From a virus (Duplodnaviria > Heunggongvirae > Uroviricota > Caudoviricetes), in IMG/VR virus record IMGVR_UViG_2740892232_000004: a DNA stretch of 41,358 bases; one strand, 5' to 3'. The translations under genes were made by a program, and so were the position numbers. Positions within the stretch are counted from its first letter, which is position 1; the number at the start of each line of letters is the position of its first letter. The notes under the pieces were generated by a model. It made no database searches and was not told the origin of the DNA. It saw nothing but the letters and a program-made list of their open reading frames with translations. Shown here one piece after another: positions 3,395 through 36,027 of this stretch.

Positions 3395-6300
3395 AACGTT
3401 CTTCCAGAGACTGAATCCGCTCTTTTATCTTATCCATTTCTCTGCGCTGCCATGCTGCCTCGATATAGAATAAGAGATCAGGTCTGACCCCCCATCTAGA
3501 TCCTGCTGGCGTTATTTCAACGCGCTCAATGATGTCTTCCATTACCATCACTGGATTATCATCCTCATCAACAATGATGCTCCCGTCATTATCAGTCAGC
3601 GGCATTTCCCTTTGGCCAGTAATGACGTCATCATATACTGCGGGATAATCGTCATAGCAAAGAAAGGCATAGCGGCATGTTGTGCTTTCTTCTTCCATGA
3701 GTCCGTGAGAAATAAGAACATCACGAAGTTGCTGCGCGATTACACCATGATGTATCCTCGCCCCTTCTTCCCCCTTTATAGCGACAGCGTTCAGCCATTT
3801 ATAAGCGATATACCTGACGTCACCCCAGGCATCCAGCAATGCTTCGTCAGGAGAGACCGGCTCTGTCTTTAATGTTCCGTCACTGGTAACCACAGGATTG
3901 GAGCCAAGATAAACTGTCGAGAACCTGTTTCCCGGACCACCAAGAGCATTTACATTATCAAGATAAGGTTTAACATCTCCGTTCTCAAAAAGATGTTCGA
4001 GTGCGTTATATACCGCGCGACGTGGAGTACTGCTTCCGGAACCATGCAACGTTATCATTGCACCATCTGCTGAAGACGTTGTTTCACCGCCGCTAACGAT
4101 TAATCTCTGAGCGGTAACATCATCAGACGGTACTTTCTTCGCAATAATGGCGTAATTACCCTCAAGTTTGACTTCCGCGCGAACTTGTCCTGATGTACCT
4201 GCATGGACAGTCAGTGACTGGACGGCAACATCATCTGTGAAATCAACGGGTACAGGAACCGTCCTCACGCCTGACGTCGACATAAAAGTAGGAAGCGTTC
4301 TGTTAGGAGTGGCTCCGTAGACAAAATCCCTTGAAACAAATTCTTCCTGTTTAATTTTCACCCTGAAACAATACAAATCAGCCGGGTGACCATCGTGAAC
4401 ATAAGGATATTTTCTGTTGTTATCCCCTATGCTCCATGGGTTTAGAAAGTCTTCCCCACCGAAAATGTAGTACAGCCAGTTGTCTTTGATACAAACTGAA
4501 CCAACACCAACTGCAGAGTTAACTATTCCGCCCTGATAAATCTGATCAGTAACATTAACCCACTCTACATTATCCAGACTCCACTCATTGACGTTAACTC
4601 TGGTCATAAATGTTCTTGGATAATTTCCTGCATAACGGTTATCAGGTTCTCCTCCTTCCCACTCACCAAATGCGCGCTCACTGCCAAAAATAATCAGCTC
4701 ATCGCCAACTTTGGCAAAAGGAAGGTTTGAGTGATGAACATTATTTGGGAAGCGAAGAGAATTCCATGATGTACCTAAATCAGAGCTTCTGTGCAATGAA
4801 CTACCGGGTTGAGTACTTAATGTCCCCCTGGTCGTCAGATACAGAATGCCATCATAATATTTTACACATGGCTCAGATGCATTCGCCTCATATTCTGCAG
4901 GTATGCGTCTGCGAACAAAGCTACCAGGAGAACCGAAAGCATCAGAGAAATAGAGTATCCCAAGCTCGCGTGGACCAATATCACCATTATGGTAGCCAAC
5001 AGCAAAACTGTTATCGCTAATCGTCGCAAAACTGTGAATCTCAGTAACAGGAGTGCTTCCGTCAACAAAAGAAGGAATAGTTCCAAGACTGGTTTTTCTC
5101 CATGGTGACGAGTGAAATGATGTACCAAAACTCCAGTATCTACCCTCGTTATTCTGATCCACATCCTGGGTATTTTGCGTCGTAACTGTAAAAGTATTTT
5201 TATCAATAACAGTAGTCACCGTCATATTCCCGGTAACACCTGTAACACCAGAGTTTGAGAAGTTGACAAAATCACCAGCAAATAATCCGTGATCAGTAAT
5301 GCGAATATAAGCGACTTGCTGATTTGCTGCTTTCGTTATACCACCATAAGCGCGAAGGCTGCGACTCATTGGGCGATCCCACAACTCTGCAACCTGCAGT
5401 TTATTTCCGCTCACGGTCCGCGTCTCAATTACAGCAAAAAGGCGATTTCTGACAACCCCCATACTCATGCAGTGATAGTTAACTGTGGGATAGTTTTCAT
5501 GTAAATCTGTAAGCCATTCCGGCGTTGTCCAGGTCTTCCCGTCATCTCCTGAGCGAACCCATGCAACATGGAGGTTATTTACACCATGGCGGTCTCCAGC
5601 CATAAAAGGCGCATAGATGACATTGTCATATACAAACGTTTTATCCTGCGTCCAGGCGTTGTACCACGGTGTATCTGTAATTTTAAATAACTCTCCCTGG
5701 ATAAAATCTTCAGAAGCATAAAAAAGAGGCTGGCCCGGTATTCTCTCAAATAAAAAACGAGCATTTTTAAATCGACTGACATCCGGAAGAGTTGATACTT
5801 TAAAAGTAAGCCCTAATCCGTCAATTTTATAACCTGGAGATGAGGCTTCAAGGCACGCGCTTATTGCAGTGGAATCGTCATTTATACCATCACCAACAGC
5901 TCCAAAATCTTTGGGGCTAATAGCATCACGCATTTTATCCTGGAACGTTCGGTACACAGCCCCAGAACCATACTGAATAAACCAACCAAAACCACCAACA
6001 ACCCCGGCGATTGCAGCATCGACATAATTACGCATTGAGCGATTATTTACAGCGTCCTGCTCAAATGATGGATCTGCAAGGTTAGAAATTTTGTTTTGCT
6101 TTGCATCGTAATATTTTGCAAGCAAAGATGGTTTCATCAATGCACGTCTGAACCACCCAAAACATTGCTGGATCAGCATCGTCAGGTAGTCAAAGGCATC
6201 TTCATGCACTTCGGGGAAAAATTTTCCCTGATTGCGAAGGTCTGTCTCCTGCACTACATCAAGCACACGATCTATCGTAATTCGCCATCCAGTAGCAAGC

Positions 6301-6688: not shown

Positions 6689-6707
6689 ATTGCATGGAGA
6701 AGATAAG

Positions 6708-6965
6708 ATGCAGCAGTATCACTATCCACTGGAAGACGGATTTACCGAAAGGATTCACACGCCGGGAGGCGTCAGGTCACTGGTGGAGGGATCGCACTTG
6801 ATGAAATTACTCCGGGATCTCGATAAGGATGGATTTAATGTCGATGGCCCACTTGCCGAACTGACTGCACTGATTAACTACGTCACCAGCTCACAGATGT
6901 CTATGCAGGATCTGCAAACACATCTCGACTATTGTGCCGAACAATTACGAAAACAAACCCGGTAA
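6708..6965 (+). CDS. Small SOS-regulated antirepressor candidate (stand-alone copy of the BRO-N protein C-terminal domain)
   Basis: ATG with GGAGAAG RBS; residues ~9-80 align to the C-terminal 75 aa of the 8114-8824 protein (shared …PLxxG…IH[ST]PxGV…LMxLL…DG…AELT…DxQTH…Y). Confidence 0.6.
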   Translation: MQQYHYPLEDGFTERIHTPGGVRSLVEGSHLMKLLRDLDKDGFNVDGPLAELTALINYVTSSQMSMQDLQTHLDYCAEQLRKQTR

Positions 6966-6987
6966 ATTTAAAGGCCGCAAGAGCGGC

Positions 6988-7716
6988 CTATCGTTTCGCT
7001 TTGTGCTCGTCCCAGCACGTTTTGCACCATGCCATTAAGCCGTCCGCATTTTGATTATTAGGGTAAAAGCTGGTCCGTTTTCTGCGGACATTACAAATTG
7101 GGCACCACTTCATATGGCGTGTATTCTTTGGGCCATCGAGACACCTTGCACACCACTTAGTCAATCCATCTGGATTTTTTGACGATTTCCGGAATTTGTC
7201 ATATGGAAGGTTTATTCTGCATCGCAAACACTGCTTGCGGCCACTTGAAACTCTGTTAGCTGATTCTTCTTTTGGCGGCGATACAGAAGGTATTCTTGCT
7301 GGCTCTGATACTGCCTGAGGTGCTTTTTTAGATGACTGAGACGATATGTCATCACCAGGGAATCTTCCATGATATGCCGGACGCATTGATACTCCAGGTG
7401 GAAGCTCAGCTGTAAACGGCTTTGGCTGAATCAGTTGCCTCTCTTTTGCTAACTCCTGCTGTTTACAATATGTCTGGATTACCGCACTATCATAAGCAGG
7501 AGGTGCGGAAATATTAGGCGCATTACCTCCAGTTTTTTGAAACTGAGTAGAGGTGTGTTCTATCACCTGTGTACGATTAATCGTTATCTCCCCATCTTCG
7601 GTCTTTATCGTTTTGTTATGATTAACGACCGTACGATCAGAGATCTTAGTCTTGTTCTGGTTGATAACGTAAATAATCACCGCAACCACACCAACAACTA
7701 TCCAGAAAACTTCCAT
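6988..7716 (-). CDS. Membrane-anchored protein with tandem CxxC zinc-ribbon repeats
   Basis: N-terminal TM helix, S/P-rich linker, C-terminal four CxxC pairs with repeated …DGLxxWCxxC; GAGGAAAA RBS. Confidence 0.6.
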   Translation of the reverse strand: MEVFWIVVGVVAVIIYVINQNKTKISDRTVVNHNKTIKTEDGEITINRTQVIEHTSTQFQKTGGNAPNISAPPAYDSAVIQTYCKQQELAKERQLIQPKPFTAELPPGVSMRPAYHGRFPGDDISSQSSKKAPQAVSEPARIPSVSPPKEESANRVSSGRKQCLRCRINLPYDKFRKSSKNPDGLTKWCARCLDGPKNTRHMKWCPICNVRRKRTSFYPNNQNADGLMAWCKTCWDEHKAKR

Positions 7717-7735
7717 TGCTTTTCCTCACAATAAC

Positions 7736-7752
7736 ATTACCTTAAAGGTAAT
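7736..7752. repeat. Palindromic motif ATTACCT-TAA-AGGTAAT (copy 2)
   Basis: Perfect inverted repeat 19 nt upstream of the ATG of the 6988-7716 gene. Confidence 0.55.
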
Positions 7753-7828
7753 ATCTTGCTTTCAGGTGATCAAGCGTTAAACGCCACCAACCAAATACGG
7801 TTGATTTTGATATTTCTCCGCGTTTATC

Positions 7829-7845
7829 ATTACCTTTGCGGTAAA
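7829..7845. repeat. Palindromic motif ATTACCT-TTG-CGGTAAA (copy 3, degenerate right arm)
   Basis: TTACC-N5-GGTAA core conserved; TTGATA -35-like hexamer about 17 bp upstream. Confidence 0.45.
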
Positions 7846-7935
7846 TTTACATCGCACTCCTCTTGTGCCATAGTAATCGGGCACTGGCAAAATCCAGTGC
7901 CGGGATTGGCGTCCCGGGTTACTAAGTGGCGCATA

Positions 7936-7957
7936 CCACGCCAGACGTGGTTTTTTT
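7936..7957 (+). terminator. Rho-independent terminator-like hairpin in a noncoding region
   Basis: CCACG-CCAGA-CGTGG followed by T7; preceded by a 9-bp stem-loop (GGCACTGG…CCAGTGCC) at about 7879-7902. Confidence 0.45.
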
Positions 7958-8113
7958 ATGCGTTAAGCACAGCTATATCCGAATTATGGTGGGCTGGGCA
8001 GGGGTCCGAAAGGACGCCGGTACCACTTAGGCCGGTACGCCAACCTTGTCCAGTTCACCACCAGTAATTGGCGTTGCGGTGGTGATTAAAATCACTAAGT
8101 GGAGATAACCACC

Positions 8114-8824
8114 ATGGCTAATGCTCAAACTTCCATCTTCAAATTTGAATCTGTTAACCCTATCCGTTCCATCATTATCGATGGCCAACCATGGTTTGTA
8201 GCCCAAGACGTTTGTAGTGCGCTGCGTATCCAAAACGTCACCCAAGCACTTGAAAAACTGGATGATGATGAAAGGTCTATGTTCAACATAGGGCATGAAC
8301 ATCGTGCAATTTTTGACAGCCGAGTAAAAGAGATCAACATCATCTCCGAGTCAGGCCTCTACACACTGATCCTCCGCTGCCGCGACGCAGTGACACCAGG
8401 CACTATCCCCTACCGCTTTCGTAAATGGGTTACGGGTGAGGTTCTTCCTCAGATCCGCCGCACCGGAAGCTACATTAAAAACTCGCTCCCGCAGGAAGAA
8501 CGCATAAAGATGGTTGCCGACCAGGTGGCCAACGCCACGGCGTCAGCAGTAATGCAGGCGATGAAGATAGAGAACAAAACCTACAGCGCCCCACTGAATC
8601 CCGGCTACCGCAGCCTGATTCATTCGCCGTCTGGTGTTCTCGGCCTGACGGAGAACTCACTGCTGATGAATCTGCTGAACCAGTTACAGGACGACGGGCA
8701 CGACGTATCGGGCGCGGCGGCGGAGCTGACCACCATGTTCTGCTACATCGTCGGTGTGAGCAAATGCCTGCGTGATATCCAGACCCACGCGGAATACATC
8801 AACGACAAGGCAGGGTTCTTCTGA
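8114..8824 (+). CDS. BRO-N domain antirepressor-like protein
   Basis: ATG with GGAG RBS; N-terminal BRO-N-like segment (FVAQDVCSAL…ISESGLYTLILR…FRKWV); C-terminal domain homologous to the 6708-6965 product. Confidence 0.75.
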   Translation: MANAQTSIFKFESVNPIRSIIIDGQPWFVAQDVCSALRIQNVTQALEKLDDDERSMFNIGHEHRAIFDSRVKEINIISESGLYTLILRCRDAVTPGTIPYRFRKWVTGEVLPQIRRTGSYIKNSLPQEERIKMVADQVANATASAVMQAMKIENKTYSAPLNPGYRSLIHSPSGVLGLTENSLLMNLLNQLQDDGHDVSGAAAELTTMFCYIVGVSKCLRDIQTHAEYINDKAGFF

Positions 8825-8895: not shown

Positions 8896-8912
8896 ATTAC
8901 CTTAAAGGTAAA
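8896..8912. repeat. Palindromic motif ATTACCT-TAA-AGGTAAA (copy 4)
   Basis: Directly abuts the AGGAGG RBS of the 8924 ORF. Confidence 0.5.
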
Positions 8913-8923
8913 GGAGGCGCGAT

Positions 8924-9091
8924 ATGACAGCGTTGAAAAATCGTACTCAGCACAATGAACAAGCCAAGCAATGCTGGGATGTCATTGGAAAAGTTATGCT
9001 TGGCCGCGCAAGCAAAGAGCGCGACAAGGATATGGTTTACCAGACAGGAACATCTTTCAGCGACTTCAAGGCGGCATTTCGCTCCAAATAG
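8924..9091 (+). CDS. Small hydrophilic protein (55 aa), unknown function
   Basis: Strong AGGAGG RBS 6 nt before ATG; below the ORF-track size cutoff; first gene of a two-gene cassette. Confidence 0.45.
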   Translation: MTALKNRTQHNEQAKQCWDVIGKVMLGRASKERDKDMVYQTGTSFSDFKAAFRSK

Positions 9092-9111
9092 AAGCACATC
9101 AGGAGTTTTCC

Positions 9112-9552
9112 TTGAAGTTTAACATTAGAATATCTAATAGTTTTCTACATGGGGAAAGCAACACCCCTTTCGCTGTAGACGGACCTTTCCTTACTGATGA
9201 TGAAATAAAAATCATACAAAGTTTTTTAGAGGATGTTGCCAATGGAAGGGCGCTTGTTGGAAAAAACAAGCCCTCGTGGGTTGATGATAACCATGATAAA
9301 ATTCCCGGCTCAGACAATTATGAGCAAGAGAATTATTGGCATTATCATTGTGGGCCAACATGGTATCCAAACACATTTAAGAATTATACCATTAACTTAA
9401 ATTTCAACCCTGGCGGAAGGCATTCTAATGAATGCATTCATTATGCAAAAAATGATAATGAAATTGTCATTGTTGGATTTTCAAGAGAACACATACCTTT
9501 CCTTTCATCAGATGGAAACAACAATCCGCTTTTTAATGATGAAGAAGAATAG
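9112..9552 (+). CDS. AT-rich moron protein (146 aa from proposed TTG start), unknown function
   Basis: Visibly lower GC than flanks; AGGAG 6 nt before TTG; no in-frame ATG except the overlapping one at 8971; N/D-rich product with single CGP and C-H pairs. Confidence 0.5.
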   Translation: MKFNIRISNSFLHGESNTPFAVDGPFLTDDEIKIIQSFLEDVANGRALVGKNKPSWVDDNHDKIPGSDNYEQENYWHYHCGPTWYPNTFKNYTINLNFNPGGRHSNECIHYAKNDNEIVIVGFSREHIPFLSSDGNNNPLFNDEEE

Positions 9553-26073: not shown

Positions 26074-26090
26074 ATTACCTTTCAGGTAAC
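26074..26090. repeat. Palindromic motif ATTACCT-TTC-AGGTAAC (copy 5)
   Basis: Upstream of the portal operon; consensus TTGACA -35 hexamer on the plus strand 17 bp upstream of the left arm. Confidence 0.55.
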
Positions 26091-26401
26091 CAAAGAGTTC
26101 ATTCCGGTTACTAACCTGACTGGCTTGTCGTTAAATTGAACAGGTGGAGTGAGCTTTTATTTTGAGCAGTACGGCGTATGGCACATGCGCCGATAGCGGT
26201 CTGGATACGTTTAAGGGGCACCCTCCCTTGCTCGGGCAAACGAACCAGGTAGCCGGAATGTGCAAGTCGAGCGGTTTTATTCCGCGCACGGGGATTCACC
26301 ATCCCGGCGATTCGGTGTGACGCCTCGGAAGAGACGAGGGTACAACGATGAGAGCATTTATGGAGCCGCGACAAAGTGTGGCGCCTTAACAGGCTAAGTG
26401 C

Positions 26402-26478
26402 TCTCAGCGTTGTGGCATTAGCTCAGTTGGACAGAGCAACCGCCTTCTAAGCGGTTGGTCGCAGGTTCGAATCCTGCA
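26402..26478 (+). tRNA. tRNA-Arg (anticodon UCU)
   Basis: Folded by hand: 7-bp acceptor stem GUGGCAU/AUGCCAC, D-arm GCUC…GAGC, anticodon stem ACCGC/GCGGU with loop CUUCUAA, T-arm GCAGG-UUCGAAU-CCUGC, discriminator G, encoded CCA. Confidence 0.85.
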
Positions 26479-26531
26479 TGCCACGCCAGAATCACGCCTA
26501 AGGACCGTGATGCCAGAAGTTCCAGGTGCTT

Positions 26532-35354: not shown

Positions 35355-35388
35355 GTTACCTATGAGGTGCATTTACCTGTTGGGTAAT
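35355..35388. promoter_or_regulatory. Immunity-region operator cluster (degenerate TTACC-N5-GGTAA copies)
   Basis: GTTACCT-ATG-AGGTGCA and TTTACCT-GTT-GGGTAAT, plus an AGGTAAC half-site at 35334-35340, between divergent cro-like and cI-like starts. Confidence 0.5.
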
Positions 35389-35442: not shown

Positions 35443-36027
35443 ATGAAAAGTATCCAGGACGTCCGCAGGCAAAATCTCAACGACTTGATCGACCGTGAAT
35501 TCAATGGTGTTCAGACGCGGATGGCAGAAAAACTTGGAACTCAGGCAAATCTGGTAAACCGCTGGGCTCTTGGCAAGAAGGTTATCGGCGACCAGGTTGC
35601 ACGAAAAATTGAAGCTGCCGCCAATAAACCCCGTAACTGGCTTGATATTGATCGTTCGCTTTCTCAGGAGGGTTTTCAGCCTGTCGGCCCGAGCGATATA
35701 GGTCAGCTGGCGGCTCACAACCTGGAACGCTGGATGAGCGAAAGCCGCGACCTTTCAACACAGGGAAAACTTCACCGCGCATCCGGCGTCGCCCAGGTGA
35801 CAATCAGCCGCCTGTTAAACAATGAGGTCAGCGTTTCCATTTCCACCCTGGAGAATGTTGCATCCGCATTCGGGCGTCACGGATATGAACTACTGATTCA
35901 CCCGCACGACCCTGCGACTATCAACTATGACCGCTCACGCTACGCATTGTTACCCGAAACCGAGAAAGCAAAGATCGAAAGTTACATTGAATTTGTCATC
36001 AACCAGAACGAAAAAAGCAAACAATAA
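35443..36027 (+). CDS. CI-like repressor with two HTH-like segments and no LexA-type (S24) autocleavage domain
   Basis: 194 aa; HTH-like regions around residues 25-45 and 105-135; no GDSM / Ser-Lys dyad motif; no obvious SD upstream of ATG. Confidence 0.65.
   Translation: MKSIQDVRRQNLNDLIDREFNGVQTRMAEKLGTQANLVNRWALGKKVIGDQVARKIEAAANKPRNWLDIDRSLSQEGFQPVGPSDIGQLAAHNLERWMSESRDLSTQGKLHRASGVAQVTISRLLNNEVSVSISTLENVASAFGRHGYELLIHPHDPATINYDRSRYALLPETEKAKIESYIEFVINQNEKSKQ

What the first reader, a model, noticed from the sequence alone, without database searches (positions are those of the whole stretch)
6988..7716. Membrane-anchored tandem zinc-ribbon protein convergent with the antirepressor gene
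One N-terminal TM helix, a long S/P/Q-rich linker and four C-terminal CxxC pairs in an internal repeat (…DGLTKWCARC… / …DGLMAWCKTC…). The positive residues after the TM helix predict a cytoplasmic zinc-ribbon domain. The gene has its own palindrome-bearing upstream region. I know no characterised phage function with this layout; candidates are superinfection exclusion, a sensor, or an anti-sigma-like factor.
Basis: partly seen in the sequence, partly recalled or inferred. Interest (0 to 1): 0.55.

Follow-up and report, generated by a model that had tools for sequence, protein, structure and literature searches.

The report
Membrane-tethered zinc-ribbon phage accessory protein
This is a real, conserved but uncharacterised temperate-phage gene: its protein sits in the inner membrane and hangs a DNA-binding-type double zinc module into the cytoplasm, and the repressor and antirepressor genes beside it suggest an untested role in excluding or defending against other phages.

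Summary
The ORF at 6988-7716 (-) is real. It has one N-terminal TM helix, a conserved juxtamembrane hairpin, a 103-aa S/P/Q-rich disordered linker and a basic C-terminal domain (net +15) with four CxxC pairs in two homologous units. All eight Cys are invariant in 29 relatives, and dN/dS is 0.26 overall and 0.06 in the Cys domain.

One detail is wrong. The gene is divergent from the Bro-N antirepressor gene (8099-8824) and convergent only with a 91-aa paralogue of the Ant C-terminus (6690-6965).

The window is an epsilon15/phiV10-like (Uetakevirus) E. coli prophage. Compared with phiV10, the gene is a self-contained ~880-bp cassette of terminator, gene, promoter and operator. Its palindrome, ATTACCTTAAAGGTAAT, is one of 13 copies of the phage repressor operator and overlaps the -10.

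The family is PHROG 6762, function unknown, and every source calls it hypothetical. In at least five other phage lineages it lies 15-19 nt downstream of a CI-like repressor, the slot that rexAB occupies in lambda.

The zinc module is the Stc1-like unit that accompanies HNH/EndoVII nucleases and helicases.

Best reading, at about 0.4 confidence: an exclusion/defence factor that catches nucleic acid at the membrane. The operator wiring in this window argues instead for early or induced expression. Function is unproven.

The parts
6988..7716 (-). CDS, 242 aa (stop codon TAG at 6988-6990); family PHROG 6762
   Evidence: Intact in 38 of 38 alleles; dN/dS 0.26.
7648..7710 (-). N-terminal transmembrane helix (residues 3-23), predicted N-out/C-in
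   Evidence: AF2 helix 3-23 with pLDDT about 90. Hydropathy and charge bias are conserved in 30 of 30 relatives.
7552..7647 (-). Conserved basic/polar juxtamembrane segment (residues 24-55), predicted beta-hairpin 29-52 at low confidence
   Evidence: Nearly invariant T29, T36, K38, T39, G42, E43 and T49. Retained in relatives at 28-37% identity. pLDDT about 50.
7243..7551 (-). Disordered S/P/Q-rich linker (residues 56-158); 64-107 aa across the family, sequence not conserved
   Evidence: dN/dS 0.67.
6991..7242 (-). Basic tandem zinc-ribbon domain (residues 159-242): unit 1 with C163/C166/C189/C192, unit 2 with C205/C208/C231/C234; net charge +15, pI 10
   Evidence: pLDDT 92-97 in the full model and 86 in the domain-only model. 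Cys invariant. Best solved match is Stc1, 2LUY. Matches viral HNH/EndoVII proteins. dN/dS 0.06.
7736..7752 (.). Perfect 17-bp palindrome ATTACCTTAAAGGTAAT, one copy of the phage repressor operator (TTACC-N5-GGTAA)
   Evidence: 13 copies in the window against 0.53 expected. Three lie between the repressor gene and the leftward gene. The operator type co-varies with the resident phage in Providencia loci.
7745..7773 (-). Predicted sigma-70 promoter: -35 TTGATC (7773-7768), 17-nt spacer, -10 TACCTT (7750-7745) inside the operator
   Evidence: The same -35 / 17 nt / -10-in-operator layout occurs in five lineages. It is nearly invariant in 37 distinct E. coli-lineage upstream sequences. The generic promoter scanner did not call it.
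7724..7727 (-). Shine-Dalgarno GAGG
   Evidence: Read directly from the sequence.
6972..6989 (.). GC-rich hairpin shared by the two convergent genes; a terminator-like site for the minus-strand gene
6960..7840 (.). Roughly 880-bp cassette (terminator + gene + promoter/operator) that is absent from phiV10 and most relatives
7830..7844 (.). Second operator copy at the divergent isrK-C4-ant promoter (context)
7881..8065 (+). isrK-like sRNA (7881-7957) and C4 antisense RNA (7982-8065) upstream of ant (context; immI-like module)
8099..8824 (+). Bro-N antirepressor gene, divergent from the gene (context)
6690..6965 (+). 91-aa ORF (epsilon15 gp19-like), paralogue of the Ant C-terminal domain; this is the gene that actually converges on the finding (context)

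Best explanation
The gene encodes an accessory, immunity-region-associated exclusion/defence factor of temperate phages.

Shown or strongly predicted:
- It is a bitopic inner-membrane protein, N-out/C-in.
- It has a conserved juxtamembrane hairpin and a 64-107-aa disordered tether.
- It has a strongly basic tandem Cys4 zinc-ribbon module in the cytoplasm.
- It is a self-contained cassette with its own promoter, terminator and a copy of the resident phage's repressor operator.

Inferred:
- The zinc module binds nucleic acid, because it is the same unit that accompanies HNH/EndoVII nucleases and helicases.
- The tether lets the module capture DNA or RNA close to the membrane. The target would be the leading end of an injected foreign genome, or a replication or transcription intermediate.
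- Capture either blocks entry and establishment of that genome (Sie-like), or drives self-association of the TM/hairpin part and a membrane-level abortive response, like a one-protein version of lambda RexA+RexB.

In lambdoid-type relatives the protein is made with CI in the lysogen. In this Uetakevirus-type prophage it is probably made when the repressor is absent or inactivated, that is, early after infection or on induction.
For: 1. It is a real, selected gene. The eight Cys, the TM helix and the hairpin are conserved. dN/dS is 0.26 overall and 0.06 in the zinc domain. It is intact in 129 of 5426 complete E. coli genomes.
2. The topology puts the zinc domain in the cytoplasm.
4. 19 of 25 loci with distant homologues, from about five lineages with GC 39-61%, have an HTH+S24 CI-like gene ending 15-19 nt upstream on the same strand. 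One further locus is convergent with cI. Aeromonas phage phiARM81mr is annotated Cro | CI | homologue | ... exo, RecT, int. By established knowledge, cI-distal genes in lambdoid phages are exclusion functions (lambda rexAB, HK022 nun).
5. In two of those lineages a secreted SNase+Excalibur nuclease gene overlaps the 3' end of the homologue.
6. In all non-E. coli Uetakevirus-like loci the gene lies between the ant module and the ejection-protein genes. P22 keeps sieA beside mnt in the analogous position (plus my own knowledge of the P22 map).
7. It behaves as a dispensable cassette, absent from phiV10, ZX5 and others.
Against: - There is no homology to any known Sie, Abi or defence protein (PADLOC none; Pfam and NCBIfam nothing significant).
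- In this window the -10 lies inside a perfect operator, as it does at the adjacent ant-operon promoter, which must stay silent in lysogens. The gene is therefore probably off in the established lysogen, which is unusual for a prophage defence gene.
- That argument is weakened, not removed, by an imperfect operator-like site upstream of the lysogenic-conversion gene oac in phiV10.
- Only about 2 residues face the periplasm, so the protein cannot contact the periplasmic part of an injection conduit as SieA is proposed to do.
- Nucleic-acid binding is inferred from charge and domain associations only. The solved Stc1 domain binds a protein (Ago1; my own knowledge).
- Adjacency to immunity genes could simply reflect moron hot spots.
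Confidence: 0.4

Rival explanations
1. The protein is an early or induction-phase helper of the phage's own lytic programme. It would tether phage DNA or a host factor to the inner membrane, like phi29 p16.7, which organises replication at the membrane, or like a ZipA-style tether that sequesters a host protein for takeover or a division block. It would be co-induced with the antirepressor.
For: - The promoter has -35 TTGATC, a 17-nt spacer and a -10 inside a perfect repressor operator. This layout is shared with the divergent ant-operon promoter and the tRNA promoter at 26075.
- The layout is conserved in five lineages, and the operator type switches with the resident phage.
- The promoter and operator are nearly invariant in 37 E. 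coli-lineage variants.
- The architecture (TM, flexible linker, basic globular domain) fits a tether.
Against: - In at least five other lineages the homologue is co-transcribed with CI, with a 15-19 nt gap and upstream of the PL-type operon. That means it is made in lysogens when lytic genes are off.
- The gene is dispensable and absent from most Uetakeviruses, including phiV10 and ZX5.
- There is no homology to p16.7 or ZipA.
Confidence: 0.25
2. The protein modulates the lysis-lysogeny switch. It would sequester a regulator at the membrane (antirepressor, repressor, a sigma or anti-terminator factor, or an FtsH-type protease substrate), acting like an anti-sigma factor.
For: - In every context examined the gene sits next to repressor or antirepressor genes: CI-like genes, and Bro-N, KilA-N/ANT or Rha genes; the Rha reading for the neighbours rests on their N-terminal sequences alone.
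- In phiARM81mr an antirepressor gene is in the cro operon opposite the cI-homologue operon.
- The solved Stc1 tandem finger is a protein-binding module (my own knowledge).
- The string H201-x3-C205-x2-C208 is present.
Against: - The two phage groups use different induction logic. The lambdoid CI proteins carry an S24 autocleavage domain. The repressor in this window has no S24 domain and depends on Ant.
- There is no anti-sigma or zf-HC2 domain match, and the structure is beta zinc-ribbon.
- The Providencia loci and Yersinia phage YeP5 carry the gene with no full-length antirepressor gene in the held locus; Providencia keeps only the gp19-like Ant C-terminal paralogue.
- The extreme positive charge and the association with nucleases and helicases point to nucleic acid.
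Confidence: 0.12
3. The Cys-rich domain is periplasmic (N-in/C-out) and disulfide-bonded, and acts as an envelope sensor or receptor-masking protein.
For: Eight cysteines could in principle form four disulfides. The protein has a single N-terminal hydrophobic segment that could serve as a signal anchor.
Against: - There is no positively charged n-region before the hydrophobic segment, and +2 to +5 net charge follows it in all 30 relatives.
- An exported domain with net +15 is very unlikely.
- CxxC...CxxC knuckles are modelled with high confidence as zinc ribbons and match cytoplasmic nuclease-associated zinc modules.
Confidence: 0.03

Closest known systems
Stc1 tandem zinc-finger domain (Pfam PF12898; S. 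pombe Stc1, PDB 2LUY)
   Same: Two consecutive Cys4 zinc knuckle units. It is the best solved-structure match (Foldseek E 7.6e-3, prob 0.85) and the only Pfam match (E 3e-4). Longer prokaryotic proteins carrying the same repeat pass the Stc1 threshold.
   Different: The score of 21.6 bits is below the gathering score of 24.8. Stc1 is a soluble eukaryotic RNAi/heterochromatin adaptor that binds Ago1 (my own knowledge). It has no membrane anchor.
Zinc-ribbon accessory modules of phage and giant-virus HNH, beta-beta-alpha-Me and endonuclease VII proteins (PHROGs 1035, 2633, 2340, 2255; PacI, Hpy99I)
   Different: The protein has no nuclease domain; it ends right after the second zinc unit, and there is no HNH Pfam hit. 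Here the module is attached to a membrane anchor.
P22 SieA (superinfection exclusion, inner membrane)
   Same: A phage accessory inner-membrane protein encoded between the ejection-protein genes and the antirepressor (immI) module next to the tailspike gene. It is a candidate functional analogue.
   Different: No sequence similarity. SieA is 162-164 aa with three predicted TM segments and no zinc domain, and it is prophage-expressed. The present gene has one TM helix, almost nothing in the periplasm and an operator over its -10.
Lambda RexA/RexB and HK022 Nun (cI-distal exclusion genes)
   Same: Family members occupy the same slot: immediately downstream of cI on the same strand and before the PL-type recombination operon. 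The combination of a nucleic-acid-binding part and a membrane part in one polypeptide resembles RexA+RexB (my own knowledge).
   Different: No homology. In this window the gene is not in the cI operon at all; nothing lies between the repressor gene 35443-36027 and the next operators.
Phage phi29 p16.7 and E. coli ZipA (architectural analogues)
   Same: An N-terminal membrane anchor with the C-terminus in the cytoplasm, and a C-terminal globular binding domain. ZipA also has a flexible P/Q-rich linker. p16.7 binds DNA at the membrane (my own knowledge).
   Different: No sequence or fold relationship was detected. p16.7 uses a coiled coil and a helical DNA-binding domain; ZipA binds the FtsZ tail.
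ZAS-type membrane anti-sigma factors (for example RsrA and RslA-type HxxxCxxC proteins)
   Same: A zinc-binding cytoplasmic domain on a single-pass membrane protein. The bare string H-x3-C-x2-C is present at residues 201-208.
   Different: The order is reversed, with the TM helix first and no extracytoplasmic domain. The predicted structure is a beta zinc ribbon rather than a helical anti-sigma domain. There is no zf-HC2 or anti-sigma Pfam match.

Membership tests
PHROG 6762 (unknown function) | Full-length match to the family profile | tested here: met
   E 1.9e-149 over residues 1-242 of a 242-position profile. cI-linked distant homologues also match, at E 4e-42 and 3e-27.
Stc1 domain (Pfam PF12898) | Score at or above the Pfam gathering threshold | tested here: not met
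   21.6 bits against a cut-off of 24.8, E 3e-4.
Stc1 domain (Pfam PF12898) | Tandem Cys4 zinc-finger fold like 2LUY | tested here: inconclusive
HNH / endonuclease VII nucleases | Catalytic beta-beta-alpha-Me (HNH) or EndoVII core | tested here: not met
   PHROG and BFVD matches cover only the zinc-ribbon units. There is no HNH or EndoVII Pfam hit, and the protein ends 8 residues after the last Cys.
ZAS anti-sigma factors | HxxxCxxC motif within a helical anti-sigma domain (zf-HC2) N-terminal to the TM segment | tested here: not met
   The string H201-x3-C205-x2-C208 is present, but it lies in a predicted beta zinc knuckle C-terminal to the TM helix. There is no zf-HC2 or anti-sigma Pfam match at E <= 1.
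ZAS anti-sigma factors | Cognate ECF sigma factor gene adjacent | tested here: not met
   The neighbours are the gp19-like ORF, isrK and C4 RNAs, Bro-N ant and the tailspike gene. No sigma factor gene is present.
Known superinfection-exclusion or defence proteins (PADLOC models; P22 SieA) | Sequence homology to a described defence or exclusion protein | tested here: not met
   PADLOC gives 0 families at E <= 1. No PHROG, Pfam or NCBIfam match is annotated as exclusion. SieA has 3 TM segments against 1 here.
Known superinfection-exclusion or defence proteins (functional class) | Reduces infection by a challenging phage when expressed | not testable with these tools
   This needs plaque, DNA-entry and K+ efflux assays.
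cI-operon distal accessory genes (rexAB-type slot) | Located immediately downstream of, and co-oriented with, the prophage maintenance repressor | tested here: not met
   Met for 19 of 25 distant-homologue loci and for phiARM81mr. Not met for this window, where the gene lies about 28 kb from the repressor gene and beside the ant module.
Moron-type autonomous cassette | Own promoter and terminator; present or absent between otherwise collinear relatives | tested here: met
   An 880-bp indel relative to phiV10, bounded by the terminator hairpin and the operator. Promoter and terminator are predicted. Transcription was not measured.
Bitopic N-out/C-in inner-membrane protein | Single TM helix with positive charge bias on the C-terminal side | tested here: met
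   Hydropathy and charge computed for 30 relatives and AF2 helix 3-23. No dedicated topology predictor or experiment was available.

The most novel reading that the evidence does not exclude
PHROG 6762 would be a previously unrecognised single-polypeptide phage-exclusion system. A membrane-anchored nucleic-acid sensor uses Stc1/HNH-type tandem zinc ribbons on a flexible tether to catch incoming or replicating foreign DNA at the cytoplasmic face of the inner membrane. It then blocks genome entry or collapses the membrane through TM/hairpin oligomerisation, combining the RexA and RexB roles in one 200-240-aa protein. Different temperate phages would have placed it under opposite regulatory regimes: the cI operon in one group and a repressor-controlled early promoter in the other.
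Probability: 0.3. Interest if true: 0.65.

Novelty: new variant of a known kind. Interest (0 to 1): 0.45.

Why it matters
If the exclusion/defence reading holds, this would be a compact defence or exclusion family with no homologue among described systems. It is carried by about 2% of complete E. coli genomes and by prophages of Enterobacterales, Aeromonas and other bacteria (loci with GC from 39% to 61%).

Its architecture is simple and easy to test: membrane anchor, tether, DNA-binding-type zinc module. It would also assign a first function to a zinc-ribbon unit that is very common in phage homing nucleases and giant-virus proteins.

Even without that, two results stand. The gene should be annotated as a CDS in phage TL-2011b, where it is only a misc_feature. 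The work also maps a dispersed 13-site repressor regulon in Uetakevirus-type prophages and shows how accessory cassettes plug into it.

Tried and rejected
- Chance ORF or pseudogene: rejected. 38 of 38 alleles are intact and dN/dS is 0.26. Short N-terminal-only hits in the representative search are frameshifted or truncated fragments, not a separate module.
- A longer 362-aa gene, as implied by the 1089-nt misc_feature in TL-2011b: rejected. The upstream frame has four stop codons, and that stretch holds the isrK and C4 RNAs on the other strand.
- Nuclease: rejected. No catalytic domain.
- Known defence system: PADLOC, NCBIfam and Pfam gave no significant match.
- LexA box in the Serratia-type upstream regions: rejected. 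CTG-N9-CAG has the wrong spacing (inspection).
- Sequence search of PDB with the domain alone and as a profile: only insignificant hits.
- The AFDB50 fold library was unavailable.
- The epsilon15 genome paper could not be retrieved, so I could not check my recollection that it describes the same operator.
- The species-representative genome scan found only 2 loci.
- Literature searches for the family, its accessions or the layout found nothing.
- The generic promoter scanner did not call the gene's promoter, because the -10 TACCTT is weak. The promoter is inferred from conservation across lineages.
Full report
**1. Observation**

The minus-strand ORF 6988..7716 encodes 242 aa with an ATG start and a GAGG Shine-Dalgarno. 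Its features are as follows.
- One hydrophobic segment at the extreme N-terminus. Mean Kyte-Doolittle hydropathy is 2.3 over residues 1-19, and the next-best window scores 0.14. AF2 models a helix at 3-23 with pLDDT about 90.
- A basic stretch, NQNKTKISDR, follows the helix.
- A conserved polar segment (residues 24-55) is predicted as a beta-hairpin at low confidence.
- The linker 56-158 is 103 aa and disordered (pLDDT <50). It contains S14, P14, A11 and Q9, so S+P+Q make up 36%.
- The C-terminal domain is 84 aa with CxxC pairs at 163, 189, 205 and 231.
- The two CxxC...CxxC units are homologous to each other (35% identity over 37 aa, E 3e-7).

One contextual statement is wrong. The Bro-N antirepressor gene (8099-8824, +) is divergent from this gene. 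The convergent partner is a 91-aa ORF (6690-6965, +) that is a paralogue of the Ant C-terminal domain (42% identity, E 4e-15).

**2. It is a real gene**
- BLAST finds it intact in 129 of 5426 complete E. coli genomes, always annotated 'hypothetical protein'.
- 55 E. coli-lineage loci give 38 distinct alleles, all intact. Pairwise dN/dS is 0.26 overall, 0.31 in the TM/hairpin part, 0.67 in the linker and 0.06 in the zinc domain.
- A 5.8-billion-protein search finds 33 clusters, and every one that carries a source name is from Enterobacterales (Escherichia, Superficieibacter, Enterobacter, Citrobacter, Salmonella, Serratia, Providencia, Pectobacterium, Buttiauxella).
- In the alignment the eight Cys, the TM helix and the hairpin are conserved, while the linker varies in sequence and length from 64 to 107 aa.
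- A profile search of 1.84 billion cluster representatives finds 1739 proteins at E <= 1e-3. A few dozen are full-length family members; the rest share only the zinc unit.

**3. Where it sits**

The window is an epsilon15/phiV10-like (Uetakevirus) prophage. The closest sequenced phage is TL-2011b, where the gene is recorded only as a misc_feature. phiV10, ZX5, phiv142-3 and others match both flanks but lack the gene.

Aligning with phiV10 shows an indel of about 880 bp (window about 6960-7840). It consists of a GC-rich hairpin terminator (6972-6989), the gene, and its promoter/operator. One junction falls at the operator of the neighbouring promoter.

To the right lie, on the plus strand, an isrK-like sRNA (7881-7957, 67.7 bits), a C4 antisense RNA (7982-8065, 66 bits) and Bro-N ant. 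This is a P1/Gifsy-type immI module. The 1089-nt feature in TL-2011b therefore does not represent a longer gene. The upstream frame is full of stops.

**4. The palindrome is the phage's operator**

The palindrome ATTACCTTAAAGGTAAT (7736-7752) matches TTACC-N5-GGTAA. That pattern occurs 13 times in the window, against 0.53 expected. It is found almost only in intergenic control regions:
- three copies between the HTH repressor gene (35443-36027, no S24 domain) and the leftward gene;
- two copies after the repressor's terminator;
- others before the replication, terminase, tRNA, ant and tailspike/gp19 units.

I read this as a dispersed repressor regulon. That reading is an inference, since the epsilon15 paper that may describe it could not be retrieved.

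On the gene's strand the layout is -35 TTGATC (7773-7768), a 17-nt spacer, and -10 TACCTT (7750-7745) inside the operator. The same layout recurs upstream of the homologues in Superficieibacter, the Citrobacter/Enterobacter/Salmonella group, an unnamed metagenome lineage and Serratia, although the spacer sequences are unrelated.

In Providencia the palindrome is TTAACC-N5-GGTTAA. That variant recurs elsewhere in those loci, while the TTACC type is absent from them. The operator therefore co-varies with the resident phage, which argues that it is functional.

Within the E. coli lineage the promoter and operator are nearly invariant in 37 distinct upstream sequences, while the stretch between the two operators varies. 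In the window only three operators have this '-10 inside the operator' design: this gene, the divergent ant-operon promoter, and the promoter before tRNA-Arg.

Because ant must be silent in a lysogen, the simplest prediction is that this gene is also repressed in the lysogen and is switched on after infection or induction. There is a caveat. In phiV10 the lysogenic-conversion gene oac also has an imperfect operator-like site just upstream, so the presence of an operator is not proof of silence.

**5. Family-wide context points the other way**

Distant homologues (28-37% identity, same PHROG 6762 at E 4e-42 and 3e-27, same TM-hairpin-linker-2xZn layout) were recovered from viral contigs.

In 19 of 25 such loci, representing about five lineages with GC 39-61%, a CI-like gene ends 15-19 nt before the homologue on the same strand. 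In four of these lineages the CI-like gene has HTH_3 plus Peptidase_S24; in the fifth it has the HTH only. A Cro-like gene is divergent from the CI gene, and the recombination (PL-type) operon lies further downstream. In one more locus the homologue converges on cI.

Aeromonas phage phiARM81mr is annotated Cro | CI repressor | this protein | ... ExoVIII, RecT, integrase. This is the slot that rexAB occupies in lambda and, as I recall it, nun in HK022, both exclusion functions made with CI in lysogens (my own knowledge).

In two lineages a secreted SNase+Excalibur nuclease gene overlaps the homologue's 3' end.

In every non-E. coli Uetakevirus-like locus the gene is the last plus-strand gene of the variable region, after gp19/ant and convergent with the ejection-protein genes. 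The E. coli lineage has the cassette inverted and relocated. This is analogous to P22, where sieA lies beside mnt-arc-ant between the ejection-protein genes and the tailspike gene (plus my own knowledge).

**6. The zinc module**

The domain is modelled with pLDDT 92-97 in the full model and 86 alone. It forms two beta-hairpin zinc knuckle units, each followed by a short helix.
- The best solved match is the Stc1 tandem zinc finger 2LUY (Foldseek E 7.6e-3, prob 0.85). This agrees with the only Pfam hit, Stc1, at 21.6 bits against a cut-off of 24.8.
- A profile search of PDB sequences gives PacI's N-terminal zinc motif at E 0.08.
- In predicted viral structures 37 proteins match at E <= 1e-3. 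Many are annotated HNH, beta-beta-alpha-Me or EndoVII endonucleases of phages and giant viruses. The PHROG hits say the same.
- Elsewhere the unit is repeated up to 10 times and fused to SF2/SF1 helicases, HEAT repeats, HNH or a J-domain. It also occurs alone.
- The domain carries net +13 to +17 (pI about 10) in nearly all complete family members.

I infer nucleic-acid binding from these points. This is not shown, and Stc1 itself binds a protein.

**7. Mechanism**

The following are shown or strongly predicted: a bitopic N-out/C-in membrane protein, a cytoplasmic basic double zinc module on a long flexible tether, a conserved juxtamembrane element, an autonomous cassette, and a link to the phage's repressor regulon or operon.

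The rest is inference. The protein would capture nucleic acid near the membrane. It would then either exclude a superinfecting genome at or just after entry, or trigger a membrane-level abortive response.

I put this at about 0.4. It best fits the cI-operon and sieA-like contexts, but it conflicts with the predicted repression in this particular prophage, and there is no homology to any known exclusion protein.

The rivals are:
- an early or induction-phase membrane tether for phage DNA or a host factor, like phi29 p16.7 or ZipA (0.25);
- a modulator of the immunity switch that sequesters a regulator (0.12);
- a periplasmic Cys-rich domain (0.03).

**8. Comparison with the known, and novelty**

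The protein is a member of PHROG 6762 (unknown function). It is not a member of the Stc1 Pfam family by score. It is not a nuclease, a ZAS anti-sigma factor or any PADLOC defence protein.

It may work like SieA, Rex or Nun (exclusion), or like p16.7 or ZipA (membrane tether). I found no paper on the family or the layout.

I rate it a new variant of a known kind: a temperate-phage accessory membrane protein of the immunity region, with an undescribed domain architecture. Interest is 0.45. It is a solid, testable candidate, but function remains inferred.

Noticed in passing
window 7868-8065 (+), then 8099-8824: A P1/Gifsy-type immI module. It contains an isrK-like sRNA (7881-7957, 67.7 bits), a sub-threshold c4-a1b1 target element (7868-7920, 44.1 bits against a cut-off of 46.7) and a C4 antisense RNA (7982-8065, 66 bits), directly upstream of the Bro-N antirepressor gene. 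This suggests antisense-RNA control of ant in a Uetakevirus-type prophage.
   Followed up: partly
window 6617, 7737, 7830, 8897, 26075, 29180, 29198, 33024, 33086, 35325, 35356 (variant), 35373, 36085, 36147: A dispersed regulon of the palindrome TTACC-N5-GGTAA, with 13 sites against 0.53 expected, sited at nearly every transcription-unit boundary. The variant at 35356 is a 2-mismatch site and is additional to those 13. Three copies sit in the repressor/cro-type divergent region and two sit after the repressor terminator. This looks like P1-C1-style multi-operator control rather than a single immC.
   Followed up: partly
window 6690-6965 (+) and 8099-8824 (+): The small epsilon15 gp19-like ORF is a stand-alone paralogue of the C-terminal domain of the antirepressor (42% identity over 74 aa, E 4e-15; both match PHROGs 450 and 15539). 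Its role is unknown; it could be a decoy or modulator of Ant.
   Followed up: partly
window 35443-36027 (+): The presumed maintenance repressor has two HTH regions (YdaS-like at 21-61, HTH_3 at 106-147) and no S24 autocleavage domain. This fits antirepressor-dependent induction, as reported for the related phage ZX5 (PMC9782041).
   Followed up: partly
window 26075-26488 (+): tRNA-Arg(TCT) at 26412-26488 lies behind a promoter with a consensus -35 TTGACA, a 17-nt spacer and a -10 inside an operator copy. The tRNA therefore appears to be repressor-controlled.
   Followed up: no
L001 (phage TL-2011b, JQ011317.1) 4387-5475: The GenBank record annotates this region only as a 1089-nt misc_feature 'similar to hypothetical protein'. 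The 729-nt ORF is intact there, and the remainder of the feature overlaps the isrK and C4 RNA genes on the other strand.
   Followed up: yes
L002 (phiV10) 202-216, upstream of oac (256-1272): An imperfect operator-like site, TTACCCGATAGGTGA, lies just upstream of the O-acetyltransferase lysogenic-conversion gene, next to a possible extended -10 (TGaTATTAT). Operator-like sites therefore also occur at a gene that is annotated as functioning in superinfection immunity.
   Followed up: partly
L114 and L117, 6648-7301 (+): A secreted SNase + Excalibur (Ca-binding) nuclease gene overlaps the 3' end of the family member in a cI - homologue - nuclease operon. It may be a functional partner, for example degrading DNA that is blocked from entry.
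   Followed up: partly
P0103, P0106, P0045, P0104 (representative-search hits): The same tandem zinc-ribbon unit is fused to a DnaJ J-domain (176 aa), to an Upf1-like SF1 helicase (C-terminal), to a 2046-aa protein with about 10 repeats plus wHTH, HEAT and an SF2 helicase, and to an HNH nuclease. It is a widely reused module whose binding target is not known to me.
   Followed up: partly
window 8971-9552 (+): A 193-aa ORF (PHROG 5954, unknown function) has its own operator copy at 8897 just upstream. In the one lineage (L066) where its homologue was detected, that homologue precedes the zinc-ribbon gene on the same strand.
   Followed up: no
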